Shown here: positions 8,450-60,625 of the stretch, piece by piece
Layout: every line of letters begins with the position of its first letter
Position numbering within the stretch: position 1 is the first letter of the stretch
From: Prorocentrum cordatum
Lineage: Eukaryota
Length of the DNA: 64,000 nucleotides
Assembly: GCA_963575745.1 (NCBI GenBank)
Contig: CAUYUJ010000336.1
Span: 186,001 to 250,000, forward strand
Reading direction: 5' to 3'
The notes under the pieces: generated by a model
Told to the model about the DNA's origin: nothing
What the model saw: only the letters and a program-made list of their open reading frames with translations
Database searches by the model: none
Made by a program: the position numbers and the translations under genes

Positions 8450-8471
8450 CTTGAGCCAAAATGGCTACGGA
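8450..8471 (-). other. Dinoflagellate spliced leader, perfect 22-mer TCCGTAGCCATTTTGGCTCAAG, at the 5' end of LINE-A
   Basis: Plus strand reads CTTGAGCCAAAATGGCTACGGA, the exact reverse complement of DinoSL. It is followed by ACCC rather than a GT donor, so this is not an SL-RNA gene. Confidence 0.97.
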
Positions 8472-8474
8472 CCG

Positions 8475-9010
8475 CTGGTGCCTGCCGTCGGTGGAGCTCC
8501 GCATGGGGCCACGAGGCGCTGTACTGGGTGGTGGGTGGGGGGGGGGGCGCATGCGGGCGGCAGCGCTGGGGCCGTCGGTGGAGCTCCCTATGGGGCCACG
8601 AAGCGCTGTGCTGGGTGGGGGGCGCAAGCGGGGTGTAGCACTGGAGCCGTCGGTGGAGCTCCCTATGCGGCCACGAAGCGCTGCACTGGGTGGGGGGGAA
8701 GCATGCGGGCGGTAGCACTGGGGCCGTCAGTGGAGCTCCCTAGGGGGCCACGAAGCGCTGTACTGGGTGGGGGGACGCATGCCGGCGGTAGCATCGGGTC
8801 GGTGGAGTTCCCTAGGGGGCCCACGAACCGCTGCACTGGGTGGGGGGGACGCATGTGGGCGGTAGCATTTGGGCCTTCGGTGGAGTTTCGTAGGGGGCCA
8901 CGAAGCGCTGTATTGGGTGGGTGAAACGCAGGGAGGAGAAAGGAGGCGGGAGGAAAACGCGGGGCGCCGTCTTTTCAAAACGAGGACCCAACATCATAGG
9001 ATGGTTGGGA
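8475..9010 (+). repeat. ~70-bp-unit tandem array with conserved terminus TCTTTTCAAAACGAGGACCCAA...GGTTGGGAA
   Basis: About 6 degenerate units, then a terminus shared with 38583-38625. Confidence 0.85.
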
Positions 9011-13789: not shown

Positions 13790-16700
13790 TTTAAGCTACA
13801 AATGACGGTGACGGGCCAGAGCTTCCCTCCGCTGTAGACGAAACTGCCTGCTCTGCTGTAGACGAAACTGCCTGCTGAACTTCAGCCAGGGCCTTGCGAT
13901 AGAAGAGCTCGAGAGGCACTGGAGATTTGAAAATTTTGCCAGCGCGGGAGCCGCGCTTAGGGTGGGCGAGGTCCCTCGCCCTCGGCAGCTGATCATGCGC
14001 ATTGCTGGACTCTAGTACGCAGGGGCATTGGCTGACAAGACGGCCCCTTGGTTCCCGCATCCGAGTGGGACCCACACGCAGAGCACAAGATGCGCGTGCT
14101 CTCAAGGAGCTTGTACTCGAAGAGAAATAGGCGGTGTCCACGAGGGTTTTGCGCTAGCGAGGCCAGGCCAGCACAGACTCCTGGGCGTCGCTCGCTGATC
14201 CTACGGTTGTATTGATGCAGATCTTTGGCACTGGCGCGGCAGATGGCGCACGCGTGCTTACCGTAAAGAAACTCCCACCGATGGGCCACGCCAGAACATC
14301 CTTGGGAAGCGGACGAGGGGGGAGGCCGCGGAGGGGGAGGGGCGGCCCCAGGATCCCAGGCGTAGGCAGCGGAGGCTGCTCCCATCGGCGCGCTGCTAGA
14401 GACGGGCTTGGCAAGGGCTCCCCCCCCAGGGCGAGGGTCTACAGGGGGCCGCTTGGGAAGGATCTGGGCCACGTAAAACAGGAAGCGCCGCGACAAACTC
14501 CGATCGGCTTTGCCGAGCTCTTTTTCGGTCCCCGAAGGCCTGTTGAAATGAGAGGTGTCGGCTCGCTTGGCTGCTTTGTCCGCAGCGTCGTTACCTTTGG
14601 CGTGGTTATAAGCGTCATTATTGTTAAAGTCTTGCGAGAGGTTCTGATGGGCTTTGAGTCCGACGAGACATCTCCCGGGCGACGCGACGGCGCGGCCCAT
14701 CAGGATTTTGAACCTTGCGTGGGTGTTCCTTTTATAGGATATCCTGGATTCTTGTATAACTGCAAAGCTCCGGCGTAGTCCGTGCGCACTTGTTCGATGA
14801 GCGGAGAGATGGAGCAATCGTCAACAGTGACCAGCATCTTTGCAACCCCAGGCCCTCGTGGAAAGTCTGAGCCCACTTGGCCAGAAAAAAGCGCGAAGGG
14901 TTCTCCGCTCTTCATAGAGACAACTGGCTAACTAGCCCGCCGTCTGATGGCCAGGGCGCAGGGGGGGTCGCATCTGCCGTCGACGTATACATTCCCCACA
15001 CAAGGCCTCTTCCAGAGAAATATTGGCGCCCTGGCGCCAGAACTGCCAGTTGTCCAATCCAGTTCCTCAGCCTCGAGGGGCTCCGATGCAGAAGTCAGGC
15101 TCATGCTGATGTCCGAACTTAATGAGCGGGTCTCTGCCGCGATGCAAGATGAGCTCGAGCCCATCGGTCGAGAACGCACGGCGCCCCTCGGGTTGGGGCA
15201 GCTGGCAATCGAACAAACGATGGCGGAGGCAGTCCGACGAGGCGCCACAGTCGCAGGCGCAATCCACGGGGTAACCCTCGTTTTTGGCTCTGGCCTTGGC
15301 CCAGCACCCTTGAGATAGAAAAAGGTTTAAAGGCTCCCTCGTTCTTGTTTGCTGAGGCTCTAAAACGCCGGTCGCTATACTGCTATCCTGGGCAGCGCCT
15401 GGGTGGCCCAGTTTGTCGGCCGCTTGCTGGCGCAGCTGGCGAAGCCAAGCTTTCTTCGTGAGTTTCTGGACGAGCGCGGGCGAAACTCAAGTTAAAGGAT
15501 ACTGTGCGCCGTCCTTGGACTGGAAAACTACAGGCGAAATTAGAGTCCAGCCGATGCGATGCAAGAATAGCAGCATGGCTCCGAAAAGGCCCGCGCACGC
15601 TGCCCAAACGAGTGGGGGCGCGGCCCATGAAGGGGCCTCACCGCGGGAGAGGAGGGCCGACGAGGGAGCAAGATCTTGGATTGCGTTGGCGGCGGCTGCC
15701 CTATCAATTAACTGCCGCACTAGAGCAGGCCCCAGGGCTCGCTTCCAGGTTGGGTCTCCCGCGAGGAGCAAGCTGAGGGCCCTGCTTCCTGTGGCGCAAC
15801 TTGGGCCCAGCTAACTTTAGATATTGTTGTTGGGCTATCGCGAGCTGGGAGTTAATGGGGCCTCTCACTCCATGCCCAACAGACGTGGCTGCGAATATGC
15901 CCGTGTTATAGATCGTCCCGGCGTCTCCCCCAGCCTCTTGATCGCCCCCCGGCCCCTTCATCCGCTTCTTGATATTGTTCATCCTTGCCGTGGCGAGCCT
16001 GTCCTTCCCCCATTTGCACTGAGGGGCGCCAGCTGCTGTCGCGCAGCCGTGGTTCGGGCCCGCGATGTCCAGCATCGTGCCTGCTCTCTCGCGAAGCTTT
16101 TCTTTCCTGATTCCTTCGCGCAGCTCTGGAGTGGAGGCGAGCATCTGAGTCTTGGCAAGGGCGGCTGAGCTGTCGAGGTCATGCTGGATGCGCTGGATTA
16201 AACTGCGGCCCCCCCGATCTAGTCTGGCTATGACTGCGCTGGCCTGGCGCGCGCGCGTTTTCATGAGGAGGTCACCCATGAACGTAAACATGTCTAAATT
16301 GGGGTTCTGCTGGGTCCAGGAGTCGAGGGGGTCTAGCGTGTACATCTGTTTGAGATGCGCTGCAAACCCACACCCCGCTGCCATACCGTATACAGTATGT
16401 CCACCGACGCGACGAGATCCTGGAGGGCGACATATCTGTGGTCAGCGCAGATGTTGAGGATAATTCGGAGCAGGGTCGCAGGAAACCCATTGCGTTGGGT
16501 TTGCGTAGCTAGCTTGTCTCTATTGATGTGCCCGCTATAGTTGCTGAGATCGTAGAGAAGCATATCAGAAACAAGTTGCTTGTGACGCTTGCTGAGGCTC
16601 TCGCAATCGAGGCTTTGCTTGATGAGCGCGGCTTCTACAATGGAGTGACTTGCTAGATGAACGAGGAAAGGCCGTCTATGATGGCGTTCACATTCGGGCG

Positions 16701-17490
16701 CAGCTCACTGTCTTACTTTTGCAGCCCACACTCTACACAGGCCCGACATCATTCCAATGGATCTCATTGCTGGCTTAGTTGATTGTGGGTATTGCTGTTA
16801 GTGCGTCGTGGTCAGAACAGAAATGTTGGCCTGTACCTGTGCGGGCATGAAACCTGGTCGTTCGATAATGTGGAGCAGCTTGGCGACCAGGTTAGCCTGC
16901 TGCTCAGGCTGCGAACAGGTTAGCCTGTGCTTGGTGAGACTAGGAGCAGCTTAGCGAAGTGCCTGGGGTGTAAACCGTTTCAGGTCGAAGCTGCCCGAGG
17001 CGGAAAGTTGTTGCGCGGCTTCTCTCCCGTCATGGGGCCCAGGGCGACTCGGACATCTATTGCACTGGGTATGGGGCTTTCTTTCGGGGTGTCGGACACG
17101 CCCCAGATGTTCGCGCGCCTCTCCGCTTCGCCTTCTAAAGTGCTGCTCGGTCGTCCAGGCCATCTTCCTCGCAAGTATGTGGTAGCTGGCTTCCAAGCGT
17201 CTAAACAACTGGTCCATCTGCGAGCCCAGCCGACGCTTTCTTGGAGCGAGCTTTGGACCAATGGTGCCCATGCTTTTAAATCTTCCGAAAATTGTTTCTT
17301 CCTCTCGGAGTCGATGTTTGCGTGTAGATCCTGGAGAAACTGGCTGGTGGCCTGGTCGGCTGCGCCCTCGGATAAGACTCCAGCTGCGATGTCAGCCAGC
17401 AGTAATTCGCACCGCTGGGCGACCGTCTGCAACCTGGCCTTCAGGTCGCTAGCGGCGTGGAACTTCCAGACTCTTGCCCTTGGGGGCGTC
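13790..17490 (-). pseudogene. LINE-B ORF2 remnant (pre-RT helical region, RT, RNase H, Cys/His motifs) with stops and frameshifts
   Basis: Motifs distributed over ORFs 16980-17969, 16333-16563, 15704-16384, 14928-15248 and 13993-14817 (HACAICRAS, ILCSACGSH). Confidence 0.8.
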
Positions 17491-18048
17491 CATCTACGCA
17501 TTCTTGAGTATCTCCAAGGCGTCTGTGTACTCGCGCCCATTGGCTCCGACCCATGTCTTCCAGAATGTGACCTGGGCCTGCGCCGGTGCGACGTGGTCTG
17601 GTTGGGCAGGGACCCCTGGTTCGTTGTCTGGCGCCTGCTGTTGCGATGGCTGCTCCTCGTCGCCGCCGCCCACGAAGCGGACTCGAGATTCCCAGGCGGC
17701 GCCGCGTCCTCCTCGACCACTGGGGCGGGGCAGATGGGAGGGTTGCCTGCTGCTCGCTCTGCTCTGCTGGCCGTCGGCCTGGAGGTGCGCGCCGCACTGC
17801 GAGCAAGCCTTGGCGGGCGCCCATTCCCACCCGCGGCAGCTGGCGCGAGGGCACACAAAGTACTTGCCGCGGGGAGCCATGTCGCAGCGCTGACGAGGGC
17901 GAGGGTGCCAAGAAACAGACTGGAGAGACCGTGGTTGCGTGCGGAGCTCGGGCTCCGAACCTTGGGCATGAGGGGCCTGAGGCAGGGGCTGCCCTGCCAC
18001 CGTCGGAGGGCCTGCTTTGGGGCAGCTCGCCTCGAGCCAGCCCCTCGG

Positions 18049-18070
18049 CTTGAACCAAAATGGCTACGGG
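18049..18070 (-). other. Spliced leader copy at the 5' end of LINE-B (CCCGTAGCCATTTTGGTTCAAG)
   Basis: Plus strand reads CTTGAACCAAAATGGCTACGGG. Positions 2-22 match DinoSL at 20 of 21 nt, and position 1 is C instead of D. Confidence 0.9.
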
Positions 18071-19489
18071 GGAGGAGGAGGAGGAGGAGGAGGAGGAGGA
18101 GGAGGAGGAGGAGGAACTCCGCTCTTCCGTCCTCCTCTCCTCCCCGTCACCCTCCCCGGGCAACCCTCCTCCATCCAGTAGTTTTCTGATGTATGTACCT
18201 TTCCTTGCGACCCCGTGCGGCAACGACCGCTGGGGGTGCGAGTGGGCAGCGACAGCGATAGAAGGAGGAAGACGAGGAGGACGACGACTATCCAGCTGAT
18301 TCTCATGTCTTTCGCCAGTGTGTGCTTCCAGGAGGCTTCTCGTCGCCACGGTTGGACTCCAGTTGAAATTTGTGAAGTGAAAAGTTGAGAAGGCAACCGT
18401 CATTCAACAGCCATATAACTAAAACTTGGTGCTTGTCTCTTGGGGGTCTCTTCGGGGCGCGCTTGGTGTCCTCTCGGGGCCTAGAGTCATGATGGAGGCC
18501 ATCATGGAGGCCATCTTGAGCTATCTGATGCCGCATTGAAACCATCTTGGCCCAAGAGCATCTCAAGTCTGCCCCCGAGTTCTCCGCATCTAGCATAACA
18601 CCATGCGTTAGTGAATGAGTTTGATTGAATGCGTGCCGGCTCTGGCTACTGGAGCCGGCACGCAGACTTCCTGTCCTGTCCTGTCCTGTCCTGGGGCTCT
18701 CTTGGGCGATCTTGGGGCCATCTTGCGTCTTCAGGGGCCAATCAAGGGCGAAACGGCGAGAAGGCACAGATCATTGAACAGCCTTACGTGTCTGGGCGAT
18801 TCTGGCCTCTCGGGGGTGTCCTTGGGAGGCTCAGTGGCTACTGGGAGCTGCCTTGCGGTGGTCTTGGGGCGTCTTGGAGGCATTTCGAATGTCATCTTGA
18901 TCTATCTTGGGCAACATTGAGCAGTCTTGGAGGCCAAGTTCCCAGCGGGAACGCCACGAGTTGTCTCGTTCACTTCTGCCCGCCCTCCCTCCATGCAGGC
19001 ACCACCCTAGACTATGCTTAGACAGAGGTCGAACACACATCAAGTGGGAACCAACACAGACGCCAGGTGCGCGACGCTCGGGAGGTGCGCCACGCGTGCC
19101 ATGTGTGCTGCGCGCGCCAGGTACGCCATGGTGCCCCAGGGGCATCGGACGCCAGGCGCGCCAGACGCGCCACGTGCTCCACGGTCGCGGAGCTTGCCAC
19201 CTGCTCCAACCGTGCCAGGTCCGCGGCTCGTGCAGCGTGCGCCAGGTGGGCCAGTGGACGCGGAAGCGCAACATCGGGCAATGTGTCGAACCCACGTCCA
19301 TTTGATACGAGACCACTTCAAAGTGGCGGCAGGGTGGTCAGCCTTGTGAAGAGCGCGTGGACAAAACGCACCCCTGGACACACATGGGGGCCCATATACA
19401 TATATCGGCGCACCGGGTCCGGGGGCCCGGGGGCCGGGACCCCGACCACAAATGTGGGCCCCGGGGGGCCCGGAGGCTCGTCGGACCGC

Positions 19490-40306: not shown

Positions 40307-40452
40307 TGTGAAAGCGAGGGTGCTAGACTGCCTAGTGTTTGCCCCTCGTCTCACCCTTTTCGTACCGTAAACATATTGGTTCCTAGGGCCTGTGAGCGTT
40401 AGGCGACACACAGAACACATCGCGCGCCCATCTCAGAAGTTACATCGTCACA
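40307..40452 (+). repeat. 5' LTR
   Basis: TGTGAAAGCGAG...CATCGTCACA. Aligns without gaps to 47377-47522 with about 32/146 mismatches (manual count). Confidence 0.9.
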
Positions 40453-40453
40453 T

Positions 40454-40465
40454 TGGTAGCGGAGC
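40454..40465 (+). promoter_or_regulatory. Primer-binding site (initiator tRNA-Met-like)
   Basis: TGGTAGCGGAGC begins 1 nt after the 5' LTR and resembles tRNAiMet-type PBS sequences. Confidence 0.65.
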
Positions 40466-40589
40466 AGTTCGAGCCACGGACTACAGTGGATAACCCATTT
40501 CGGCGGATCGACTGTCAGCACAGTCTCAGATTCGACGGGCTGCCTGTCCGCAGCATTTCTAAGTCATGGCGCCCAAACGGGAGCCATCA

Positions 40590-43500
40590 TATGACGGACG
40601 AGGAGATCCTGGGGACGAGGGCGACCCAGCTGTTGCGCAGCCGGGAGGTGGATCGTACTTATATTAAAGCGCCCGCCGTCGACCCCAAACACATGGCGAT
40701 GAAGGATTACCGCCGGAGAGTCGCAGTGTTCAGAACACGCGCGTTCTTGCCCATCGAGAAGCAGGCCGCAGAGCTCTACGCAGAATTGCAGGGCGACGCC
40801 TGGGTGCACGCAGAGAACTTCGATCCGACGGAGCTTCAGAATGCAGAAGGGGTCCAGATACTGCTCGGCTTTCTGGCCGATAAGTTTGATGACGAGATGG
40901 TGATGGAGCTTGGTGGTGAGCTCGAGACGCTCTTCACCCAGATGTGCCGCGAGAGCGGCGAGGATATTCGAAACTACATCAACCGCTTCGTCTCGCAGGT
41001 CTCGAGGTTGAAGACGCTACAGATTGAGTTCCCAGATCAGGCGGTCGCGTGATTGTTCATGCGGTGGTTGGGCATGCCGCCAGATCGAAAGGTTGGAGTG
41101 CTCGGCGCGAATCAGAACAAGTATGGGATCAAGCCGTTGCAGAAGCAAACGCTACTCAACATGAAAGATGCCCGAGCGCAGGGCAAGTTCTACCCCCGGA
41201 GGCCCGTGCCAGCGCAATCTGCCACAGCCAAGGGAGGAGCCAGACAGCGACGATGGGGAGCTCACGTGACCGAGAATGATAAAGAGGATGGGAATTTTGA
41301 GGCGCTTCAGACTCAAATGGGGGAGTTATTCGAGGAAGAGGGCGAAGCGGAGGGTGAGTCTACAAGCTGGAGAAGATGTTGGCCATATCGAAAGGCCGTA
41401 AGAAGGACGCCGATCAGGCGAAAGGTCGACGCCGTCGAGACCGTCTACTTGGTGGCAAGGGCATCGGAAGCAAGGGCCGCAACTCGGCAATCGCTGGAGG
41501 CAGGGGGGGGGCTCAGATCGCAACGAGAAACTGAAGGCATGGACGCACTGCGCAGTATGTCAGCGTCTCGGGCACTCGAAGTGCTATCCAGAATGCCCTG
41601 GGCCGCCGAAGAAAGCGCGCATCGCGTCGGCCGACGACCACTTGGAAGAGGGCAACGGCGCCGACCAGTACTGCGTCACTTGGCCGAACATGGAGCAGCT
41701 GATCGCCGGACAGACCTTCTTCGTCAAGAACGCGATGATGACGGGCGCGCTGAACGCAACAATGGCAGCGCAGGAGGAGCTTCTACAGCAGCGCGGAGGC
41801 AAGCTGTTGCCGGACTCGCGCTGCGCCAAGACGGTGGGGGGCCAGGTCTGGCGCGGCGGCGCGAAGCAGAGGCTCGCCAAGTTGGGCCTCATGCCGATCG
41901 ATTTCGACGAGCGAGAAGTTTTCAGATTTGGAGCGGTCAAGCCGATCGCGAGCGCGATTGGAGCGTTGGTGCCGCTTGCCGCGCAGGGGCGCCACTCCGC
42001 GCTGAGGATCTCCATCGCGCCGCGCCTGGTGCCAGCATTGCTGTCTTGGTCAACTGGGCGCTGCCCGCGATCGCGGGATGGAGGCCGGCGAGAGCGCCAT
42101 CGTGCTCAGGAAGCTGGGGGCATCCAGCCCCGCGCTCGGACGCGCCCAGAGCGGGCGCCCAAGTTTCGGCGCGTTGCAGTTAGATTCGGCCCATCTTTTC
42201 ACGACGGCCCAACGCGTGGGCCCGAGCCGGACAGAGATCCGGCACCTTCCGCCATCGCAGCGCCGGTGGGAAGAATTTGAAAAGAGCGGCATCGCACGTC
42301 GCATTCTCGTGCTCTGGAGGATCCCCAAGGCCCCGCTCAGGACATTTCGAGTGGGCCTCCAGAGGGATCCAAAGAGGATTCAAGGCGATATAAATTTCGA
42401 CGAGCGCGACCCGAATCGGAGCGAGATAATTTTCGACCCGTTCGAGAGCGACCCGACTCTGCGCGAGATGAACTTCAGCGCGTTCGGGGGCGATCCGGAT
42501 CGCTCAGGATGCCCCGGAAGAGCCCCGCCGGAAACCAGATAAATGCCAATGTGCGGGAACGGGCGGAAACGCGCGCTTGGCCGCCACGCTGCGCTGCAGA
42601 AACCCGTGCTTTAACAGCAGCAGCAAGCAGAGCAAGCACGACGGGCGCGATTCGATGCCACAGAGCGTTTGCACGATGATGAGATTATGCGTCCTCAGCC
42701 AACATCGTTTCAAGCCGTTTCGGGTGATCGGCGATTTCCCCCATATTCAAATACTTTTCTGTGTCGGCGTGGATTCAGAGTTGGCGCTCTCTCATTGTGG
42801 GCGCCGAGAAGCACTGCAATGCAGCAGCGCTCGCGCATTGGAAGCAGGTGTTCAAGTTAGTTATCGCGGCGGTCGAGATGACCAGGCAGCCGGCAGTGGC
42901 GATCATCTGTCGCAGCGGCCATCGGCGCGGCAAGGAGGGGATTCTGGGGGGTCGATCCGGGCCGCTAGCACCGCGTCGCCCACGTCCGCTCGGGACCGTG
43001 GCCAATGTGGAGTTGCAGGAAGAGATGGAGAGCAACGGACTGGAGTGCCAAGGTCTGGGACGCAGGGGGGCGCGAATGATTCTCAACGAGCAGCGGATCA
43101 GGAACGGCCAGAGCCGAAGGGGTGTTCGAGCAACCGATCCGGAGCTTCGAAGACTAGCCAGGAAAAGCGAGGCGGAGGTCGCCCAGCAGGCCAAGAAGCG
43201 CGACGTCAAGGTAATTAACCGAGGGCGCGATCAAGGACAACATCGCAGACTCCGAGGGCAGTCAAGAAGGAGGAGGTCGTGGTTGAGGCGCCGCTGTGCA
43301 CGACCTCGAAGGATGCTTCAGCGACCAAGAGTGCCTGCTTAGCCTGCCGGAGCTCAGGAAAGGCATATCTCGCAAGGGCAGCGGGGCCACCTTCTTCGGA
43401 TGGCCGCGAGAGCGACGAACCACCTTTGAGGAGAAGGAGTTCGTCGATGAGCGACATGGCGGTTGCAGCGGGAGGCGTCAGCGTGGAGGGGGGCCAGGAC

Positions 43501-46500
43501 CGGGAGACGATAGCTCCGTAGGGGAAGACTCGAAGGCAGCCGGAGCGAAACGCGAGATGGGGCCCAGGCAGATCCAGCGGTGCAGGGGCATTTTCAAGAA
43601 GGTCGTCGGCTTCCTCGCGTGGCAGACCACGTTCGTCGGCGCGTTCCTGGTTAAGCCGCTACTCTCAGACGGCAAGGCTCTCGCCCAGGACCTTTGCGAC
43701 GCGTTTGATATCAAGCCCGACTCGGGCCGCGACCTCGCGCAGATCTTCGCGGGCGAGGCCGTCATCTCAGAAGTGCCCCGCAGGCAGGAGTTCAAGGTCT
43801 GCGAGCCGGTCGACAAGATCTACACATGCAATCTTCGAGAAGTTGAAGACCGACGTGAAGTTCTACAGATTTACCATTCGCGCGACCCGCGCGATTTACC
43901 ATTCACTCTGGGGCATTTGCGCACTCCGTGGACGCAGCTAACGAGCGCCAGCTGCCGGGGGGAAGACAACAATAACTACGTCGCAGGCGCATCGGAGACC
44001 GACCTCTTCTGGCTTTGCGGAGGAGCATTGCAAGACTTCGAGGCGGCCGACGTCGCCCCCGCTTTGATCAAGCCGAATTTGGATCGCACCGCCGATCTGA
44101 AGATTCAGATGCGGTGCAAGCCAGAGCCCGTCGCGGACGACATTGGAGCCGAAAGTTGAGATTGTTCAACAAGGACCTGGCTGCACTGCGTCAGCTACAC
44201 CAGAACCTAGGACATCCCAGCAACGAAGACCTTGCGATATCATTGAGATTCTTGGGATGTCGACCGGAGGTTGCGACGGCGGCGAAGTCATTGCGGTGTG
44301 CTTGTTGCATGAGTGAGGCGAGGAAGAAGATCGCGAGGCGAGCCAGGTTGTCGCACGCAGCAAACTTCACCGAGCAGATTGCTCTGGACTGTTTCACAAT
44401 CGAAGACGTCGATGGCAAGGCTTGAGATTCCTATTCGTTTCATGTTGTGGGCATGGTCGAGAGGCATCATTCAGATACCTCGGTCATGGCGTTCACTCAG
44501 GCATGGGCCAGTTTGGCAGGGCCGCCAGAGAGCGCAGTGATGGGCATGGAACGCGGCTATGGTTTAGTCGCCCAAAAGATGCTTGATGGATTTGACAGTG
44601 CAGTCGTTCCAGTTGCGGGACAGGCAGCGCGCGAACATGGGCGCGCAGGCCGTCGAGGAGGATGGTGGAAGGAGTTGGCCGAAAGGACCATCGCGCGCAC
44701 CGCAGCATCCAGGGGGTCCGACGCGCGCGTCATCTCTTCCGTCGCCAGCGGCGCAATGCACGCATTACGTCGTCGGTGTAGATTCAGTCCAGAGCAGCTG
44801 GTATTCGGCAAGAGCGCGCGACTACCAGCAGATCGAGTGAACGGAGCGCACCACGACGCAGTCCATGAAAGAGCATAACTACAGCATGTGGAGAGGCAAA
44901 TCAAGATGGACCGCAGCCCGCAAGGCTTACATGGATATGCAGAACGACAGCACGCTACGTAAGGCACATGGGGCGCGCCCGAGTACACCCACGCCCACTG
45001 GAACATGGAGTTTCTGCTCCTGTTACCGCCAGCTCAGGAAGGGCTCGATCAAGAAGGGGATACGGTTGGGGCAGGCTGGGATTGTCGGGAAGCAGGGCCA
45101 TAACAATTGGATTTCACGCGGTGGCTTCGCGAAGCTACTGGCTTCAGAACACGTTCGACCTGTCGCTACTGGCGGCGTTTGGGGGCCAGACACCGACGAT
45201 CAACGCGGAGAAGCTCTTGATCAACTTCAGCGACTGCGTCGAGATGTCGGGGCCAGCGCCGACATGGGGCTCGAAGAGCTACGAGGGGAAGAACCACCAC
45301 CGGAAGAAGGAGCTGTCAAGATTGAGGCGGAACCCGCGGGAGCACCTGCCGAAGGCGCGCCAGGAATTCCAGATGAGTCTGATCTCTCACCTGCTGATGA
45401 GCTCCCGGAAGAACAGCCAGACGCAGCGACCGCACCATCTACGTCAATTTCAGCGCCGCCACCTGGACGAGTGAAGGATCGCCCTGAGCCGGAGACTTGA
45501 ACTGCGACGAGTTCAGCGACGTCGAGCCGTGTGCAACCCGCTCGACGACGCACCTCAATGCATTCGGGGAAGCCAACAGCAATAATAAGTTGCACGACAA
45601 ACTGCTGCACGACAAGCCGCGCGACAAGCTGGACAACCGTGCCACGTCAGCATTGCCCATGACAGCGACGAGGGCACTACCGCTAACACCAGCTTTGCCG
45701 CCATGCTACTTGGGGCCCAAGTCCAGAGTGAAAGTCCCCGGAAGGAGCTGCAGGGTCGGGAAATCGCCTGGAAGGACACCCCTGAGGAGCGCGAGCCGCT
45801 CTACCAGAAGGCCATCGCGGGGCGCTGGGAGGAGCGGGGGAAGTTTGGTTCAGTGGAGGCGTCATCGCTGCAAGAATCTCAACAAGCACGACAGGAGGAC
45901 GACAGCAACCGATTCCTGCCGTCCGGGCTCGAGTTCCGCGATCAAAACGTCACTATCTGCATGGGGGCCGATGCCGCGCCGGTGAAAGCCAAGGCCAGAT
46001 TTTGTGCTTCAGGACATCGCGATCCAGATCTACAGACTGAAGCTGTTCGAACTGACGCGCCTACAGTGACCAGAGCCAGACCCATGTTGTTGTTCATAAT
46101 GGCCGGTCGCCATGAATGGGATCCATCGCGCGCCGATCATATCCGCTTTCGTAGAGGGGGATGGGGCAGCCAAGTGACGAGCCTAAGTTCATGAAGCAAC
46201 TACCGCAAGGTCTACCAAACCTTCAACCAGGACAGGTGCTACGAATTTGTCAAGGGGATTTTCGGTTTGGCTAACGCTGCAAGACAATGGCGGGCTACGC
46301 TCAGGAAAGCCCTGCTGAAGGTCAAGCTCGTGAGTCGCCGACTCGATCGAGACGAATCGCATCGTGGCAGGGGCCAAGCGCTGCAACGAGACCGCTATCA
46401 CGATTTCAAAGTTGGACGGCGAGCTACGCTTTCGCTGAATTTCGCGATGCTGCGTGGGGAATGTGGACGAGCCAGATGACGGCGTGTCTGGCACGGCCTG

Positions 46501-47030
46501 GCGGCGCAGGCGGCGGGGCAAGGCAGCTTTCGCCTCGGAGGCCCCGAAGACGTTGAAGGCCAAGAGTCGAGCGGGTTTCTTGATGTTCGTGACAGAAGAA
46601 GATCTTCGAGAACGGCGAAGGTAAAGCTGCATTAGTGGATTGGAGATCCGCCACCAGCAGGAGGGCATGCCGCCGCGCGTTCGCCGCCGGGACAATGAGT
46701 GAGTGCAGCGGGCGCTTTGGGTGCAGCTATTGCGGTGCGCGTTCCTATGCTTGACGCTGTGTATCCCAAGTTGAGTCGATGATATTGACCCAGGTCTGTG
46801 TTCGATTCAGTGCGTGACATATTGAGCCTCACTACATGATGCAGTGCGTCGAGCAGGAGCAGCGAAGTTGCCTGCCGAGAGACACCTAGCGTTGGTTTTG
46901 AATTGATTACGTGTGCTGTTGGAAGATGAAGTTGTGGAAGGGGTGCCCGCCGCTGCCAAATCTAAATTGCCGTTGGCTTGGCGCCCGGCTCAGGGCATGA
47001 TGGTTTATGCGCTCACAAAAAGGATGTATG
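40590..47030 (+). pseudogene. Copia gag-pol remnant (many stops and frameshifts)
   Basis: Gag ~40590-41300. Knuckle HCAVCQRLGHSKCYPECP ~41545. Protease LPDSRCAKTVGG ~41810. Integrase LHQNLGHPS..LRCACC 44185-44310 and core to FSPEQLVFG ~44810. RT KARFCASGHRDPD..DAPTV ~45990 and FGLANAARQW ~46265. RNase H end WRPAQGMMVYALTK ~46980. Confidence 0.85.
43731..44045 (+). pseudogene. Degenerate cytosine DNA methyltransferase-like segment inside the Copia polyprotein
   Basis: DLAQIFAGEAVIS (motif I-like FxG), EPVDKIYTCNL, and LRTPW at the position expected for the catalytic PCxxW. Lies between protease and integrase. Confidence 0.5.
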
Positions 47031-47376
47031 GATCAAATATACGCAACCCGATGGATGGACATGTGATGTTCCGCAAAGACGCCCCGCCCAAGGCAGACGA
47101 CGATCATGACATTATGATGAGTTCATGGCCTACCTATTGGGAGCATTGGGTTTGAGGTGTTTCGATGTGAGCCTGATTCCATGTGTAGCTGTCCAAGAGC
47201 CTGTCGGCCGCCCGTTTGCATTCCGTTCGCGAGCCTTTTTGGACTGAAGTTTGCCGCTCGAGAGAGTGGCGGATTGTCCGCTATCGGCACCCTGGAGTTT
47301 CATGTGCCAGCACGACGCGCGCCATCCATGCTCTCCGCTCCTTGATCGACAAGGGGCAGCATAAGTTTAGAACGAG

Positions 47377-47522
47377 TGTAAAAGCGAGAATGCTAGCATG
47401 CCTTGTGTTTGCCCTTCGTCGCACCCGTTTCGCTCCGTGCAAATCCTGGCTCCCGGGGCCATTGAACTGTAGGCGACGCGCGGAAAACGCCGCGCGCCCA
47501 TCTCAGAAGTTGCATCTTCACA
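47377..47522 (+). repeat. 3' LTR
   Basis: TGTAAAAGCGAG...CATCTTCACA followed by the TSD GTGGG. Confidence 0.9.
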
Positions 47523-47529
47523 GTGGGCA

Positions 47530-53759: not shown

Positions 53760-54104
53760 TATGTTGATGACGATGCTGCTGATGATGATGATGATGCTGA
53801 TGATGTTGATCCTGGTGATGTGGGGGGTGGCGATGCGGATCATGATGATCATGAAGGTAATGGAAGCATGATACGGATGATGCTGCAACGTATGAATGAT
53901 GTTGATGATGTCGATGATGTTGTTGATGATGGATATAATGACGATGATGCTGATGATGACGAGTATAATGCTGATGATGCTGATTGTGATAATGGTGGGG
54001 GTGGTGGCGATGCTGCTAATGCGGGTGATGAGGGTGTTGCTGCTGATGATGGTGATGTTGATGGTGACGATGTTGATGATGACGATGATGATGATGATGA
54101 TGAC

Positions 54105-54138
<34 letters not shown>

Positions 54139-54305
54139 TGGTGGGGGGGTGAAGATGGTGAGTCTGATGATGATTATGGTGATAGTGGGGGTGATGATGC
54201 GGATGATGATTCGGATGATGATGCTGATGTTGCTAACGATAATGGTGATGATGATGCTGATGACGACGATGATGCTGATGCCGGCGATGACGATGATGAT
54301 GATGA
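53760..54305. repeat. Imperfect (GAT)n microsatellite
   Basis: Directly visible. Confidence 0.9.
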
Positions 54306-56883: not shown

Positions 56884-57479
56884 AAGGGGGGCGGGCCTGC
56901 TCAGAAGGCTCGGAAGTCCTCCGAAGCCTTCCCCGAGCACACGGAGAGCTTTTCAGAGTCCCCGCGGCCTTCTGAGAAGGCCTCCTCCCTTCTTTTTCCC
57001 CCACTCGGTCGCCGCCGAGAGGACGACCACGGATACGCGAGCACGCCCCCAGAGGCATGCCTCCGCCGCCTCAGCCTCTCGGGCGACCGCTCTCCGCGCA
57101 CGGGCCAGACGTCCTCTCAGTCGCACTCGGTCGCACTGGCAGCGTTCGCCTGACCGTGTACGGCGTGGACCGCAGTTAGCACCAGCAGTTTGCGCAACTG
57201 GCAGTAGGCGGCGAGCGGAAGGGGGGAAGTGAGAAGGAGGAGGCCTTCTCAGAAGGCGGCGGGGCTTTTCAGCCTTCTGAGAAGCTTTCTGTACCTTCAG
57301 GGAAGGATTCGGAGACATCGCGGAAGGTTCAGATCACTTCCGAGCCTTCTAAGACGGCCCGCCTCTTCTCACTTCACCCCCAGGCTCGCCGCCGAGCTTA
57401 GGGCGTGGGCCGATGTCAGCACTGGCAATTTGCGCACCTGGCAGTAGGGCAGGGCGTGGCCGCAGTGGTCTTGCGTGCT

Positions 57480-60400
57480 CCTTTTGGCGCAGCATGCTAC
57501 CAGACAGGACCACCATGAGCGCACCGGTGAGCCCACGACAGCCCGAGTATGCCCCCAACGCGAAATAAAAAGCACAGAGGGGGTTCAATCTTTCTGGCTC
57601 CAGGGGGGCCTCTCGCGCTCGAGTTCTCAGTATCGTCGCGCCGCCGTGGGACCTGTAAGACGCACTCCTGTACCACGCGGACATCAGCCGGTTGTGTGCA
57701 GGGTTCCTGTATATCCGGATAGTCTGATAGTTGAAGTGCCGCATCGTATGTTCGTGCCTGGCCTATTTGGCCGTCGATGTTTGTTGTCGGCCGGAGGGTT
57801 TTGCCGCGCGCACGGGAATTGTTCGAAGCATTCAATCGGCGAGAGGACGAGAGGGTCCGCAACAGGGTGTCTTCAAAGGGTGCTGTCTGTCTGCGGCCTT
57901 GCATCCCTTGCGGACGCGTAGGCGTAGGGAAAACATACGCTGAAATCACATGTAGTGGAACAGTAATGCCTCGCTGTCGGTAGAGTTTCGCTTGCCGTTC
58001 GCGAAGGATTGATGACAACGGTTGTGATTCTGCCTGTCTCTGTCATGCTTGAGAAGCCACAGCGAATCCAATGAATATAGCAATTTGCTGAGCAAGCAGC
58101 TGTTGTATATCAGTATCTTGTGCCGCCGACCAACTGCAGAATGAGCCCACAAATTCGCAAGTTGCTGAAACACTCTTCTGGCTTCTCCGATGCGCCACGA
58201 TAGCTCGTTGCCAACGCGTCCATCATTGGTAAGGAGGCGTTGAGAGACATCTCACTATAAGCGTCGCCAATCCTCCTGTAGTTGTTGTTTGGCTCGATGA
58301 GTTCCAAAGCAGTCTGCGATATCCATGCTTGCCGGGTTAGTTGCGCCCTCCGTGGTACAATATATGTGGCAGCACTAAACGCGCGCTCGACGTTCCCCGC
58401 AGCTTCGTCAAGAGAGCAATCTGCAACACTAATATCTGACCACGCGTTGTAAAAACGCCTCGTGAACGAAGGCTGGGTCCCGCACCGAAGCATTGTCGAC
58501 ATGAGGTCGTGCATGTGCCGCAGAAGACTGGAATTGTAAGTTAAGCTCTGCCGTCAACAAGTAGTGGTGGTTGTTCAAAGCAACGGTCGGTGCGTTCTGC
58601 AGAGTTCCACCCAAGATAGAGGCATGACTAAGCACATGGTCGATCTGAGCGCATTTCTTTGGAGAGATGTCGTCGTCCATGGGGAAGAGTATCAGCAAGA
58701 AAGAGATGTGGATCAATGTATTGCGTTTCGCCAGGTTGTTGTTGGAGCAGTTTAGCGTTGAAATCGCCCAATACAAACGTAGTGTTGTGCTGTGTCGTTG
58801 GTCGTACTGTTCTCAGTAATTCTGCGAAGAACGATGGACGAACATCGTACTCGTATTTGCTCTGTGGGGCGTAGGTCGATAGAATCGTCAGTATGTCATG
58901 ATGCACTCGGATTCGCAATGACGCCAAACGTGGTGATACCACCCGGAACGCGACTAAAGAAGAACGGGTCCACGGAGAAACGATGAAGCCGACCCCAGCC
59001 ACAGACCGTTGTTCGTCGTCAGGTTTCCCAGATCAACAAACCATGAAACCGTCGTAATCAAATTATTCGAAACCATGTAGTTGAGCCTCCTGTATGGCCA
59101 AAACGTCGATGTTGTGGGCAAGCATTGAAACAGTTATTTCAGACAACTTTGCATAAGAATCCCCACGGAGACCATCGTCATTCCAAGTGCCAAACATTTG
59201 CGTGCGAAGTGGCTGACATCCACGTCGAGGTTGAAACCACTTGTGCAACCGCGTGGAAGAGTGAGACAATGGAGCGCCCGTGCGCGCTGTAGAAGCCGAG
59301 TGCGATTCCGCAGTTGAGGCGGAACGGTATCTTGCCCGGGAGACGCCCCACGTTGGGAACTGCATGCTGAAACATAAGTGGCCCATTTGCACGGGCTCTC
59401 ATGCCAGGCCGGACTAGACCTGACAAATGCCGCGTTTCCTAATGCCCGTTTGACTTCCCTTTCGGCTGACCCTTCATGCCGCCCAAAGACCGCTGAAGTA
59501 AAGCATTGTATTGGTCTTCCAATTCCTTGAGGCCTTCGTGCTCTTGGAGTTCCTTCCAATCGGCCCATGAATCGGCCCACTCCTTCCCAGCGTTGCCGAC
59601 CACTGTCACTGTAAGGGCGGCCTCTTCGCCAACGCTGACCTCGTATGGGGAGGAGTTCGTAATTTTGATGATGTGGGGGAGTTTGAACGCATCCTTGAAC
59701 AATTCTTTCAGCACGAAACAGTAGTTGCGTGCTGCGCGCTCTGATGGCGGCTGGTCGGGTGAAGCCCAAATGTCCTTACCATTCTGTTGAAGACGGGCGC
59801 TCCTGATAAGTACCGCTGCTGTGGCACGATCAGTCGTATCCAAAAACTCCGCGAACAATATGTTTGGTGGCGTCCTCTTTCATGTACATGTTATGGTGTA
59901 AGTCATAGTAAGCCCATCAAGATTCACAAACACTGCAGTAATAGAGCGCCTATCAATCGGGTCGTGAGGATGTCTGGAATCTCCTTGGCATCGGAGTTGC
60001 TGGTGTTCACGTTCTAAGGCTTGTAGTTTCCCGTGTGCGTTTGTGCCAATGTTCGCTTCTGACCCCGTCCTGGCAGAGGGACCTGGAGTATGCGCTCGCA
60101 AAGTATCCCTGGACTCCAGCGTTTCCAGTCGCATCGTGATGTCGTCGATGGCGTTGGAAATTGGAGCATCCTTAGCATCGAGATCTGCGTGTGAGACTCC
60201 ATGTGTTTCTATCTCGTTTTAAACGCGATAATTTCGGTTTATGTCCTGGCGGATTGGGTCGAGCTGCTCTTTGAGGATCTCTCTGAAGGTGCTCATCGAC
60301 AAAGGCTCCGTGTTCCTGTTTTCGACGTTGTCGCTGGCACCAGCTTTGGCCAGAAGAGCTTGGAACCGTTGCTGTCGTACAATGTTGTTCTCAGCGTCGT

Positions 60401-60625
60401 CTAGCCCGTTCATATCCTGCAGCGGACTTTGGATGCGGTGCTGCTTGAATAGTTGTTGGACAGGGGTGCCTGGCGCACAGGTGTCAACACTTACCCCAAT
60501 AGCAGACATCGATGCAGCGTTGAGTGGATGGGGTGGCGCTGGAATGAATAGGAGAAAAGGAAAGTTCGGGTTTCTGACCACCCACCGCTGGAGCCAAATG
60601 GAGCCTTTGAGCCAAAATGGCTATG
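57480..60625 (-). mobile_element. Non-LTR retrotransposon LINE-C (RTE-like; ORF1 + APE + post-RT region, RT core deleted), 5' tandem SL; 3' boundary approximate
   Basis: APE: TWNDDGL, IDVLAIQE, GVGFIVSP, LSTYAPQS, VLGDFNAK, QIDHVL. Post-RT: LLTNDGRVGNELSWRIGEARRVFQQLANLW..KILIYNSCLLSKLLYSL. ORF1-like IWASPDQPPSER (59439-59858). SL copies at 60588-60625. Confidence 0.82.
60588..60625 (-). other. Spliced leader followed by a tandem relic SL at the 5' end of LINE-C
   Basis: Minus strand reads CATAGCCATTTTGGCTCAAAGGCTCCATTTGGCTCCAG. This contains a 17-nt exact SL core (60607-60623) and then CCATTTGGCTCCAG, resembling the relic CCATTTTGGCTCAAG. Confidence 0.85.

What the first reader, a model, noticed from the sequence alone, without database searches (positions are those of the whole stretch)
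8450..60625. All three LINEs in the window, with dissimilar sequences, are SL-capped: a general trans-splicing-dependent retrotransposon strategy
SL sequences occur at 8450-8471, 18049-18070 and 60588-60625, and I saw no other convincing copy in the window. Each lies just upstream of ORF1 of a different non-LTR element: two RNase H-bearing types and one RTE-like type. The LTR and DIRS-like elements have none. Inference: dinoflagellate LINEs may rely on host read-through transcription plus SL trans-splicing to obtain a capped, precisely 5'-defined RNA.
Basis: partly seen in the sequence, partly recalled or inferred. Interest (0 to 1): 0.9.

Follow-up and report, generated by a model that had tools for sequence, protein, structure and literature searches.

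The report
LINE copies headed by spliced leader
Three decayed jumping-gene (LINE) copies in a dinoflagellate genome each begin with the short spliced leader that these algae add to their messenger RNAs, so they were copied back into DNA from mature trans-spliced RNA, which extends the known "recycled cDNA" habit of dinoflagellates to the retrotransposons themselves.

Summary
The window has three convincing dinoflagellate spliced-leader (SL) copies, all on the minus strand (8471-8450, 18069-18049, 60626-60606 plus a truncated relict at 60601-60588). None is expected by chance. Each lies 80-200 nt upstream of an ORF1-like frame of a different non-LTR element running leftwards. These are the only three LINE-like sequences I could detect.

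- Element 1 (2003-8471): ORF1, APE, RT and RNase H. The complete 22-nt SL lies inside a perfect 13-bp target-site duplication, so the SL was part of the inserted cDNA.
- Element 2: RT and RNase H, but no APE.
- Element 3: from another clade, with its RT core deleted.

All three junctions sit at the 3' end of the SL exon, as trans-splicing predicts.

Best reading: these are target-primed reverse transcripts of SL-trans-spliced LINE mRNAs, the LINE counterpart of known DinoSL-tagged retrogenes. Whether this is a general, depended-upon strategy remains untested. No genome was available. SL sites from other collections were LINE-headed in 0 of 136 and 1 of 123 cases, and the second test had low power. 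Interest is moderate: a new member of a known kind.

The parts
8450..8471 (-). Element 1: complete 22-nt spliced leader (TCCGTAGCCATTTTGGCTCAAG on the minus strand).
   Evidence: Exact 21-mer match. T at 8471 read.
8472..8474 (-). Three extra bases (CGG on the minus strand) between the target-site duplication and the SL.
   Evidence: Read. Origin is inferred: untemplated or cap-derived addition.
8475..8487 (.). Target-site duplication of element 1, copy at the element's 5' side (ctggtgcctgccg).
   Evidence: Identical 13-mer at 1990-2002. Both lie in units of the same 77-bp satellite.
1990..2002 (.). Target-site duplication of element 1, copy at the element's 3' side.
   Evidence: It is followed at 2003 by the element's A-rich 3' end (minus strand ...CCACACCAAAACAAAAA).
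2003..8471 (-). Element 1: structurally full-length LINE of 6469 bp. Order: SL, 5'UTR, ORF1, then ORF2 with APE, RT and RNase H, then 3'UTR.
   Evidence: The family profile covers its positions 94-1430 of 1502 across 6922-2914. A target-site duplication lies at both ends.
7279..8274 (-). Element 1 ORF1: 332 aa, intact, with an N-terminal Cys/His cluster and a coiled-coil-like region.
   Evidence: Translation. No Pfam family.
2161..7200 (-). Element 1 ORF2. It is broken by one in-frame stop (5249-5251), a frameshift near 6925 (start approximate) and a frameshift near 3890.
   Evidence: Four contigs of run X1 lack one base at 3890.
18049..18069 (-). Element 2: SL matching 20 of 21 bases (CCGTAGCCATTTTGGTTCAAG).
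13851..18069 (-). Element 2: decayed LINE of the same superfamily. Order: SL, about 170-nt 5'UTR, short ORF1-like frame (17881-17498), linker, RT (16689-15193), RNase H (14661-14053). The APE region is absent. The 3' end and any target-site duplication were not determined.
   Evidence: (co-linear profile positions 304-1453).
18071..18115 (.). (GGA)15 microsatellite directly upstream of element 2's SL. On the minus strand this is a 45-nt pyrimidine run.
60606..60626 (-). Element 3: decayed SL matching 18 of 21 bases (ACATAGCCATTTTGGCTCAAA).
60588..60601 (-). Element 3: second, 5'-truncated SL relict (CCATTTGGCTCCAG, aligning to SL positions 8-22).
   Evidence: The score of 21 is reached by 6 of about 395 random 160-nt windows, so its position carries the argument, not the score.
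58015..60626 (-). Element 3: LINE of another clade. ORF1-like frame with stops (60620-59442), APE (59239-58700), linker (58671-58230), then the RT C-terminal region (58236-58015). The RT core is deleted near 58233. The 3' end was not determined.
40306..47526 (+). Comparator: a probable degraded copia-like LTR retrotransposon with no SL.
   Evidence: 151-bp direct repeats at 40306-40456 and 47376-47526. Retrotran_gag_2 at E 0.022. No SL at chance-exceeding level.

Best explanation
The three features are genomic copies of non-LTR retrotransposons, made by target-primed reverse transcription of LINE mRNAs that had already received the host's 22-nt spliced leader by trans-splicing. Reverse transcription ran to the 5' end of the RNA, so the leader was written into DNA as the first bases of each copy.

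Shown:
- The SL lies in sense orientation at the head of each element.
- Each junction sits exactly at the 3' end of the SL exon.
- For element 1, the SL lies inside the target-site duplication.

Inferred:
- The RNA intermediate has lost everything upstream of the splice acceptor, so new copies carry no upstream promoter. They can be expressed again only if transcribed from outside, by read-through or a nearby start, and trans-spliced again.
- The DNA-encoded SL itself offers acceptor AGs. Use of its terminal AG would restore exactly one SL, as in elements 1 and 2. Use of the internal AG (SL positions 6-7) would leave a truncated relict behind a new SL, as in element 3.

I read the SL as the expected mark of how any retrocopy is made in an organism that trans-splices its mRNAs. 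I do not read it as a proven special adaptation.
For: (1) There are three SL matches and no chance expectation.

(2) All three lie on the same strand as a LINE body and 5' of it, with 80-200 nt between the SL and an ORF1-like start. A rough one-to-one chance estimate is about 1e-5.

(3) Element 1 has an identical 13-bp duplication at 1990-2002 and 8475-8487, within units of one 77-bp satellite. It brackets SL plus element plus A-rich tail.

(4) LINE identity:
- P0001 (element 1 ORF2) has 2124 relatives at E<=1e-3.
- Of 18 relatives scanned at E<=1e-3, 15 have RVT_1, 10 have Exo_endo_phos and 3 have RNase_H.
- A profile built from 18 full-length relatives hits only elements 1 and 2 in the window.
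- Element 3 matches P0156, an APE plus RVT_1 protein, at 48% identity.

(5) In all 3 of 3 cases the SL ends at ...AG and no SL-RNA intron follows.

(6) SL identity falls with element decay: 21/21, 20/21 and 18/21. This fits neutral decay after insertion.

(7) Element 3 carries the SL plus truncated relict expected from a second round. Such tandems are known for retrogenes (PMC5585692 and PMC12014239, passages read).

(8) There is one independent case. Metagenome contig L191 has an SL at 37-58, ORF1 at 365-1684, and an ORF2 whose first 417 aa match the N-terminus plus APE start of LINE protein P0088 (E 2e-33).

(9) Song et al. 2017 report the GO term 'RNA-dependent DNA replication' enriched among genes with DinoSL relicts (PMC5585692, passages).
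Against: - No RNA evidence was obtained.
- Target-site duplications and 3' ends could not be defined for elements 2 and 3. For those two, the claim that the SL is part of the insert rests on analogy.
- Three unexplained bases separate the target-site duplication from the SL in element 1.
- Only element 1 is structurally complete. Element 2 lacks the APE and element 3 lacks the RT core, so none of the three is an autonomous source copy.
- Pfam support on the window's own sequences is below the curated cut-offs: RVT_1 18.8 bits against 29.6, and Exo_endo_phos 14-17 bits against 24.5.
- In two outside samples, SL sites were rarely LINE-headed: 0 of 136 and 1 of 123.
Confidence: 0.8

Rival explanations
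1. Dinoflagellate LINEs in general have given up their own promoter. As an evolved strategy they depend on host read-through transcription plus SL trans-splicing to gain a cap and a precisely defined 5' end. Most full-length copies genome-wide would therefore be SL-headed.
For: - All 3 of 3 detectable LINEs in the window, from at least two clades, are SL-headed.
- A fourth case lies in an unrelated contig, L191.
- A trans-spliced intermediate cannot carry an upstream promoter (inference).
- RT genes are enriched among DinoSL-relict genes (PMC5585692).
- Run X1 holds diverged contigs over element 1 (41 of 397 and 32 of 271 letters differ). Four contigs lack the base at the window's frameshift at 3890. 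This suggests a multi-copy family, some of whose copies have an open frame there.
Against: - The sample is three elements in one window.
- No genome-wide count was possible.
- The pattern is equally predicted if the SL is a passive tag.
- None of the three copies is intact.
- Outside samples gave 0 of 136 and 1 of 123, though these sampled SL sites rather than LINEs.
- An internal promoter downstream of the SL cannot be excluded by sequence alone.
Confidence: 0.35
2. Template switching. During target-primed reverse transcription the LINE reverse transcriptase jumped from the 5' end of an unspliced LINE RNA onto free SL RNA. This would give SL-LINE chimeras without trans-splicing, as in human U6/L1 chimeric retrocopies (recalled from memory).
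For: SL RNA is abundant, and LINE reverse transcriptases can switch templates (general knowledge, recalled). The three extra bases at element 1's 5' junction show that something untemplated happened there.
Against: - A switch onto SL RNA should copy from its 3' end and so include the SL intron. Here all 3 of 3 junctions lie exactly at the exon's terminal AG, with element sequence directly behind.
- The junction falls at a similar place, 80-200 nt before ORF1, in three unlike elements. That fits a splice acceptor, not random 5' ends.
Confidence: 0.04
3. Site-specific insertion. The LINEs target SL sequences or SL RNA genes, as SLACS, CZAR and CRE do in trypanosomatids and NeSL-1 does in Caenorhabditis (recalled from memory). 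On this view the SL belongs to the target, not the element.
For: All three elements abut an SL, and such SL-gene-specific LINE lineages exist in other trans-splicing organisms (recalled).
Against: - In element 1 the SL lies inside the 13-bp target-site duplication, and both flanks are the same 77-bp satellite.
- No SL-gene remainder follows any element's 3' end, and there is no Rfam hit in the window.
- The elements encode an APE-type endonuclease, not the restriction-like endonuclease of the SL-specific lineages.
Confidence: 0.03
4. Chance matches or an assembly chimera that joins SL-bearing cDNA-like reads to repeats.
For: The region is repeat-rich. The source assembly is unknown to me.
Against: - None of 100 shuffles gave any match.
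- Element 1 has a perfect target-site duplication.
- Run X1 holds contigs identical to the window over parts of element 2: 0 differences in 402 nt and in 312 nt. X1 may be the sample the window was assembled from, so it is not independent support.
Confidence: 0.01

Closest known systems
DinoSL-relict retrogenes ('recycled processed cDNAs'). Slamovits & Keeling 2008 is recalled, and is cited in PMC6050394 and PMC5585692, whose passages were read.
   Same: A DNA-encoded SL in sense orientation at the 5' end of a retrocopy. Tandem SL plus truncated relict after repeated rounds, as in element 3. The SL is used as a tag of retroposition.
   Different: There the tagged units are host genes copied in trans by an unknown reverse transcriptase. 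Here the tagged units are the retrotransposons themselves, and one has a defined target-site duplication that shows a LINE-type insertion.
Enrichment of 'RNA-dependent DNA replication' genes among DinoSL-relict genes in two Symbiodiniaceae genomes (Song et al. 2017, PMC5585692; passages).
   Same: It implies that RT-encoding units often carry an upstream DinoSL relict.
   Different: It was reported as a GO enrichment and read as a sign that retrotransposons drive retroposition. In the passages I read there was no element anatomy, no target-site duplications and no statement that LINE 5' termini are the SL.
SL-containing retrotransposons of Schistosoma mansoni (PMC5832876; passages).
   Same: Genome-encoded SL exons merged to transposable elements (six cases). 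The authors interpret them as possibly trans-spliced, retro-transcribed elements.
   Different: A different phylum and a different SL. The authors also allow for assembly chimeras. No target-site-duplication proof appeared in the passages read.
L1Tc/ingi LINEs with the Pr77 internal promoter in trypanosomatids (PMC1874656 and PMC8190864; abstracts in the search listing only).
   Same: LINEs living in a genome whose mRNAs are SL trans-spliced.
   Different: The opposite solution. Pr77 at the element's 5' end drives transcription and yields unspliced transcripts. The elements here carry the SL itself at the 5' end.
SL-gene-specific LINEs: SLACS, CZAR, CRE, NeSL-1 (recalled, not checked in a call).
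   Same: Physical association of a non-LTR element with SL sequence.
   Different: Those elements insert into SL RNA genes using a restriction-like endonuclease. Here the SL is inside the target-site duplication, the target is a satellite and the endonuclease is APE-type.

Membership tests
APE-type non-LTR retrotransposon (LINE) | Reverse transcriptase domain of the LINE type | tested here: met
   Element 1: RVT_1 at E 0.0014 on the read-through frame, below the cut-off. However, there are 2124 relatives, and 15 of the 18 scanned have RVT_1. The family profile scores 384 and 293 bits. Element 2: 56 bits over RT positions 674-881. Element 3: the RT core is deleted and only the C-terminal region remains.
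APE-type non-LTR retrotransposon (LINE) | Apurinic-like (EEP) endonuclease N-terminal to the RT | tested here: met
   Element 1: Exo_endo_phos at E 0.03, and profile positions 94 onward are covered. Element 3: E 0.0056 and 48% identity to the APE of P0156. Element 2: not met, because profile positions 1-300 are absent.
APE-type non-LTR retrotransposon (LINE) | Target-site duplication flanking the whole unit, and no terminal repeats | tested here: met
   Element 1: 13 of 13 bases identical at 1990-2002 and 8475-8487. Elements 2 and 3: inconclusive. Only microsatellite matches or a chance-level 9-mer were found.
APE-type non-LTR retrotransposon (LINE) | A-rich or simple-repeat 3' tail | tested here: inconclusive
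   Element 1 ends in ...CAAAACAAAAA next to the target-site duplication. This is short and not a long poly(A). The 3' ends of elements 2 and 3 were not found.
DinoSL-tagged retrocopy | SL in sense orientation at the 5' end, with the junction at the SL exon's 3' end | tested here: met
   Met in 3 of 3.
DinoSL-tagged retrocopy | The SL belongs to the inserted DNA, not to the target | tested here: met
   Met for element 1, where the SL lies inside the target-site duplication. Not testable for elements 2 and 3.
DinoSL-tagged retrocopy | The transcript of the source copy is trans-spliced in vivo | not testable with these tools
SL-gene-specific LINEs (SLACS/CZAR/NeSL type) | Insertion within an SL RNA gene, so that SL-gene parts lie on both sides | tested here: not met
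   Both flanks of element 1 are a 77-bp satellite. There is no Rfam family in the window.
SL-gene-specific LINEs (SLACS/CZAR/NeSL type) | Restriction-enzyme-like endonuclease C-terminal to the RT | tested here: not met
   The endonuclease is APE-type and N-terminal. The C-terminal part of elements 1 and 2 is RNase H.
   The three closest short relatives (P0156, P0158 and P0159; 934-1010 aa) have APE and RVT_1 only. A fourth relative, P0157 (1714 aa), has RNase_H as well.
   No tree was built, and the window copy lacks the RT core. The ORF1-like frame of about 390 aa (60620-59442) is not what I recall of typical RTE elements.

The most novel reading that the evidence does not exclude
The encoded spliced leader may act as the LINE's portable 5' module. 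The SL ends in AG, so a DNA copy of it supplies a trans-splice acceptor at its own 3' edge. Splicing there swaps the encoded SL for a fresh capped one and regenerates exactly the same 5' end each generation. Promoter-less LINEs of several clades could then persist wherever they land inside a transcribed array. The TTTT/TTTG motif of the SL may add promoter activity, as Song et al. 2017 propose for retrogenes. If so, SL-headed LINEs would be the rule in dinoflagellate genomes. They would also be the natural source of the reverse transcriptase that 'recycles' host mRNAs.
Probability: 0.3. Interest if true: 0.7.

Novelty: new member of a known kind. Interest (0 to 1): 0.5.

Why it matters
LINEs everywhere face a 5'-end problem: a copy made from RNA loses any promoter that lies upstream of the transcription start. 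The known answers are internal promoters (L1; Pr77 in trypanosomes) or insertion into expressed genes (R2; SL-gene-specific elements).

A LINE whose transposition intermediate is a trans-spliced, SL-capped mRNA suggests a third answer, available only in organisms that trans-splice. It also ties the retrotransposons directly to the well-known but mechanistically unexplained 'cDNA recycling' of dinoflagellate genes.

The target-site-duplication-bracketed element 1 is direct evidence for a LINE-type (target-primed) insertion of an SL-bearing RNA. The reviews I read still debate whether LINE-type or LTR-type machinery does the recycling (PMC6050394, passages).

In practice, SL-headed copies mark 5'-complete LINE insertions, which helps repeat annotation in these huge genomes.

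In five full-text searches I found no paper describing SL-headed dinoflagellate LINEs. The idea nevertheless follows closely from published work.

Tried and rejected
- Whole-genome census: no genome is held for this window.
- Direct Pfam on the window: none of 253 ORFs of at least 120 aa had a hit at 1e-3. I then scanned only the element regions and 40-48.4 kb (no hits).
- PDB sequence search with P0001, P0004 and P0003: only a weak DNase-I-like hit (CdtB, E 0.0045) and noise.
- The search for homologous proteins with P0001: nothing. The exhaustive search then found the family.
- tblastx of element 1 against the window: no related copy.
- Target-site duplication and 3' end of elements 2 and 3: only (GGA)n matches and one chance-level 9-mer. 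That call's output was an oversized k-mer dump.
- Metagenome scan for element 1's first 20 bases: 0 matches.
- Sequencing runs: no RNA holder is listed.
- Read laying: the tables were cut to the best-supported rows, which the 77-bp satellite dominated. The loose ends at the SL junction (8471) were not shown, so I could not see whether other copies of the family carry the SL. Joints 1901>8584 and 1948>8566 join satellite to satellite. I do not read them as an empty site.
- ORF1-based search for further SL-headed LINE heads in short contigs: only L191 matched itself, because ORF1s are too divergent.
- Plus-strand SL-like repeats at 60634-60690: their alignment score of 17 is at background level.
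- Rfam: no family in the window.
- The search of earlier findings: nothing relevant.
- In one search the ORF1 reference (7279-8273) was in the wrong frame. I redid it as 7279-8274, with 0 families.

Full report
**1. The observation**

The canonical dinoflagellate spliced leader (SL; motif recalled, and quoted in PMC8045281) matches the window three times with up to 3 mismatches. None of 100 dinucleotide-preserving shuffles gave a match.

All three matches are on the minus strand:
- 8470-8450, exact, with a T at 8471 that completes the 22-mer;
- 18069-18049, 1 mismatch;
- 60626-60606, 3 mismatches.

A 12-nt core gives the same three sites, against 0.46 expected. An edit-distance scan of a 16-nt core adds only a distance-3 copy ending at 60588, directly 3' of the third SL. 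The other distance-3 hits (plus strand: 18556, 22788, 47249) are no more than shuffles give, at 0-2 per shuffle over 6 shuffles.

**2. What follows each SL**

Pfam was almost blind here. None of 253 ORFs of at least 120 aa had a hit at 1e-3. The window's own frames reach only sub-threshold scores: Exo_endo_phos at E 0.03 and 0.0056, and RVT_1 at E 0.0014 on a frame read through one stop with X.

An exhaustive HMMER search with the 717-aa frame P0001 (5252-7402, minus strand) found 2124 relatives at E<=1e-3, 566 of them at <=1e-10. Of 18 relatives scanned at E<=1e-3, 15 carry RVT_1, 10 carry Exo_endo_phos and 3 carry RNase_H. Several score above Pfam's cut-offs, for example P0010 (RVT_1 40.5 bits, RNase_H 37.5 bits), and P0012 has all three domains.

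I built a 1502-position profile from 18 full-length relatives. It hits the window only on the minus strand:
- element 1 at 6922-2914 (profile positions 94-1430; 384, 293 and 82 bits);
- element 2 at 16689-15193 (positions 580-1079).

With filters off, element 2 shows co-linear weak hits from 17585 to 13851 (positions 304-1453), including the RNase H part. Nothing matches positions 1-300, which is the APE.

Element 3 is not hit by this profile. Its APE region finds P0156 (967 aa; APE plus RVT_1 at 121.7 bits) at 48% identity. Tblastn maps the window onto P0156 as follows:
- residues 13-192, 245-320 and 313-395 map to 59239-58230;
- residues 801-874 map to 58236-58015.

The RT core, about 400 residues, is therefore deleted in this copy. 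Neither query set hits anywhere else in the window. The three SLs and the three detectable LINE-like sequences thus correspond one to one, on the same strand and in the right order. A crude chance estimate for that is about 1e-5.

**3. Anatomy of the 5' ends**

- Element 1: SL, a 5'UTR of about 175 nt, then an intact 332-aa ORF1 (8274-7279) with an N-terminal Cys/His cluster and a coiled-coil-like region.
- Element 2: SL, about 170 nt, then a 128-aa ORF1-like frame that also opens with a Cys cluster.
- Element 3: SL plus relict, about 80 nt, then an ORF1-like frame with stops.

In all three the element sequence starts directly after the SL's terminal AG. No SL-RNA intron follows.

**4. The decisive detail: element 1's borders**

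A 77-bp satellite lies on both sides of element 1, at 8484-8930 and 1918-1997. It also occurs at 37863-38625.

Read on the plus strand, the left flank ends ...gcactggtgcctgccg at 2002. It is followed by tttttgttttggtgtgg..., which is the element's A-rich 3' end on the minus strand. On the right, the SL complement ends at 8471. Then come three extra bases (8472-8474), then ctggtgcctgccg (8475-8487), and then the satellite continues.

This is a perfect 13-bp target-site duplication that encloses SL plus element plus tail. The SL was therefore on the RNA that was reverse-transcribed, and it is not a feature of the target.

Element 1 is recent by this measure, but it is not intact. ORF2 has one in-frame stop (5249-5251) and frameshifts near 6925 and 3890.

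Contigs of a DNA run, X1, cover the whole stretch that was laid.
- Over element 2 they include pieces identical to the window: 0 differences in 402 nt and in 312 nt.
- Over element 1 they include pieces about 10% diverged: 41 of 397 and 32 of 271.
- Summed depths are higher over element 1 (13-84) than over element 2 (5-18).
- Four contigs lack one base at 3890, exactly where the window's frame shifts.

I read this as weak evidence for a multi-copy family in which some copies have an open frame at that point. X1 may be the sample the window was assembled from, so it is not independent support for the assembly.

**5. Mechanism**

Shown: the orientation of the SL, a junction at the SL exon's end in 3 of 3 cases, and the SL inside the target-site duplication for element 1.

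It follows that the template was a mature trans-spliced mRNA copied to its 5' end by target-primed reverse transcription. SL identity falls with element decay (21/21, 20/21, 18/21), as expected for neutral decay after insertion.

Element 3's second, 5'-truncated SL copy aligns to SL positions 8-22. It is the pattern described for retrogenes that went through two rounds, and it is explained by trans-splicing at the AG inside an encoded SL (PMC5585692 and PMC12014239, passages). Its alignment score alone is reached by 6 of about 395 random windows. Its position is what counts.

Inferred:
- The intermediate carries nothing from upstream of the acceptor, so new copies lack an upstream promoter and need outside transcription.
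- The single clean SL of elements 1 and 2 would be regenerated if the terminal AG of an encoded SL served as the acceptor.

I have no RNA data.

**6. Rivals**

- Insertion into SL RNA genes (SLACS/NeSL-like, recalled). This is excluded for element 1 by the target-site duplication and the satellite flanks. It also does not fit the APE-type endonuclease or the absence of SL-gene remains, and Rfam finds no family in the window.
- Template switching onto free SL RNA (U6/L1-like, recalled). This should bring in SL-intron sequence, and the three junctions at the exon end argue against it.
- Chance or an assembly artefact. This is excluded by the shuffles and the target-site duplication.
It is not excluded, but the data here do not require it. 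The same picture arises passively wherever mRNAs are trans-spliced and a LINE reverse transcriptase reaches the 5' end. The contrast with the LTR element is likewise expected, because LTR replication rebuilds its termini from internal repeats.

The window's LTR element is only probable. The evidence is 151-bp direct repeats 7.07 kb apart, Retrotran_gag_2 at E 0.022, and gag-, integrase- and RT-like motifs that I read by eye. I could not find a DIRS-like element.

**7. Tests of generality**

No genome is held for this window, so I sampled SL sites elsewhere.

(a) IMG/VR viral contigs.
- There are 119 stretches and 136 unique exact SL sites.
- None of the 136 has a LINE-profile hit downstream.
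- None of the 125 downstream ORFs scanned has RVT_1 or Exo_endo_phos at 1e-5.
- None is hit by 147 LINE proteins in blastp.
- These contigs turned out to be AT-rich and giant-virus-like (see section 9), so they say little about LINEs.

(b) Metagenome contigs, with the SL preceded by a base other than A.
- Only 49 sites have at least 1 kb downstream and 15 have at least 2.5 kb.
- Of 69 downstream ORFs scanned, 17 have Pfam families at 1e-4. All are ordinary cellular ones, such as HSP70, a PP1-type phosphatase, a cGMP-dependent kinase and arginine kinase.
- One site is a LINE head. L191 has an SL at 37-58, ORF1 (440 aa) at 365-1684, and an ORF2 open to the contig end. Its first 417 aa match the N-terminus and APE start of LINE protein P0088 (33% identity, E 2e-33). 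P0088 has Exo_endo_phos at 290-476 and RVT_1 at 878-1101.

This gives one independent example. The base rate shows that DNA or contig SLs mostly precede ordinary genes. These tests sampled SL sites, not LINEs, so they neither support nor refute the statement that 'most LINEs are SL-headed'.

Relatives of both LINE families sit on public contigs of 5.4-6.7 kb, about one element long. Their 5' ends would be the quickest check, but I could not fetch them.

**8. Comparison with what is known**

- SL relicts as tags of retroposed genes are textbook for dinoflagellates (PMC6050394, PMC12014239, PMC11453091; passages).
- Song et al. 2017 report 'RNA-dependent DNA replication' enriched among DinoSL-relict genes. 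This already implies that RT-encoding units carry SL relicts.
- In Schistosoma mansoni, six genome-encoded SL exons are merged to transposable elements and are interpreted as possibly trans-spliced, retro-transcribed elements (PMC5832876).
- Relict dinoSLs also flank some endogenous dinoRNAV genes (PMC10235124).
- In trypanosomatids, L1Tc solves the 5' problem the other way, with the internal promoter Pr77 and unspliced transcripts (PMC1874656, abstract in the listing only).

Five full-text searches listed no paper that describes dinoflagellate LINEs whose 5' terminus is the SL. I opened passages of some listed papers, not all of them. I could not see supplements.

I therefore class this as a new member of a known kind. 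Its useful extra is a target-site-duplication-proven, LINE-type insertion of an SL-bearing RNA.

**9. Seen in passing**

The viral-contig scan gave an unexpected result. In giant-virus bins with a median GC of 21%, the exact 22-nt SL (preceded by A in 129 of 136 sites) sits a median of 50 nt upstream of the ATG of an ORF of at least 80 aa, in 113 of the 123 sites that have at least 600 nt downstream. The genes are typical of giant viruses: ribonucleotide reductase, a family X polymerase, many DUF4116 proteins, helicases, Bro-N and GIY-YIG. One literature search showed nothing in its listing that obviously describes this. It deserves its own follow-up.

**10. Verdict**

The SL is a genuine part of the LINE transposition intermediate. 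Generality and dependence are untested.
- Confidence in the core explanation is 0.8.
- Interest is 0.5.

Noticed in passing
Loci L001-L119 (IMG/VR viral contigs, mostly giant-virus 'GVMAG' bins): AT-rich (median GC 21%) giant-virus-like contigs, up to 267 kb long, encode the exact 22-nt dinoflagellate spliced leader. There are 136 unique sites, and 129 are preceded by A. The SL lies a median of 50 nt upstream of the ATG of an ORF of at least 80 aa in 113 of the 123 sites that have at least 600 nt downstream. The genes include ribonucleotide reductase, Pol X, about 13 DUF4116 proteins, DEAD, ResIII and UvrD helicases, Bro-N, GIY-YIG and FtsJ. No RT was found. Possible readings are viral mimicry of host trans-spliced mRNAs or endogenised or retroposed genes. 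One literature search listing showed nothing that obviously describes it.
   Followed up: partly
L191:1851-1900, and the N-terminus of protein P0088: A 2A-like motif starts the ORF2 of an SL-headed LINE and of its relative P0088...RIGEAANPGP in L191 and ...RVGEAKNPGP in P0088. No NPGP occurs in any frame of the window. That this resembles 2A 'skipping' peptides is recalled from memory, not tested.
   Followed up: partly
L067 (viral contigs): An SL at the very end of a 5.3-kb contig is followed by an ORF with a viral RdRP_1 domain (E 4.9e-7). This resembles the SL-bearing dinoRNAV assemblies discussed in PMC10235124.
   Followed up: no
window 8484-8930, 1918-1997, 37863-38625: A 77-bp GC-rich satellite occurs at three places. 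It is very abundant in run X1 (summed word depth about 197,000 in its bin) and is also present in a marine plankton metagenome run, X2. Element 1 inserted into it.
   Followed up: partly
window 40306-47526 (+): A probable degraded copia-like LTR retrotransposon. It has 151-bp direct repeats 7.07 kb apart (78% identity), a weak Retrotran_gag_2 hit (E 0.022), and zinc-knuckle, integrase-like and RT-like motifs read by eye across frameshifts. There is no Pfam support above threshold.
   Followed up: partly
window 55774-56880 (+): A 369-aa open frame with ordinary protein-like composition and a GDPH motif. It has no Pfam family even at E<=1. It lies just beyond element 3 on the other strand.
   Followed up: no
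window 32988-33725, 49945-50457, 51204-52499, 53761-54305, 61687-62249: Very long, imperfect trinucleotide arrays: (GAG)246, (GGA)167, (TGA)426, (ATG)180 and (GAT)188. They create long spurious open frames on both strands.
   Followed up: no
window 2003-8471, 13851-18069, 58015-60626: All three SL-headed LINEs lie on the minus strand, while the LTR-like element lies on the plus strand. With n=3 this is not significant (1 in 4 by chance). Co-orientation with a local transcription unit is what dependence on read-through would predict. No host gene was identified in the window to give that direction.
   Followed up: no
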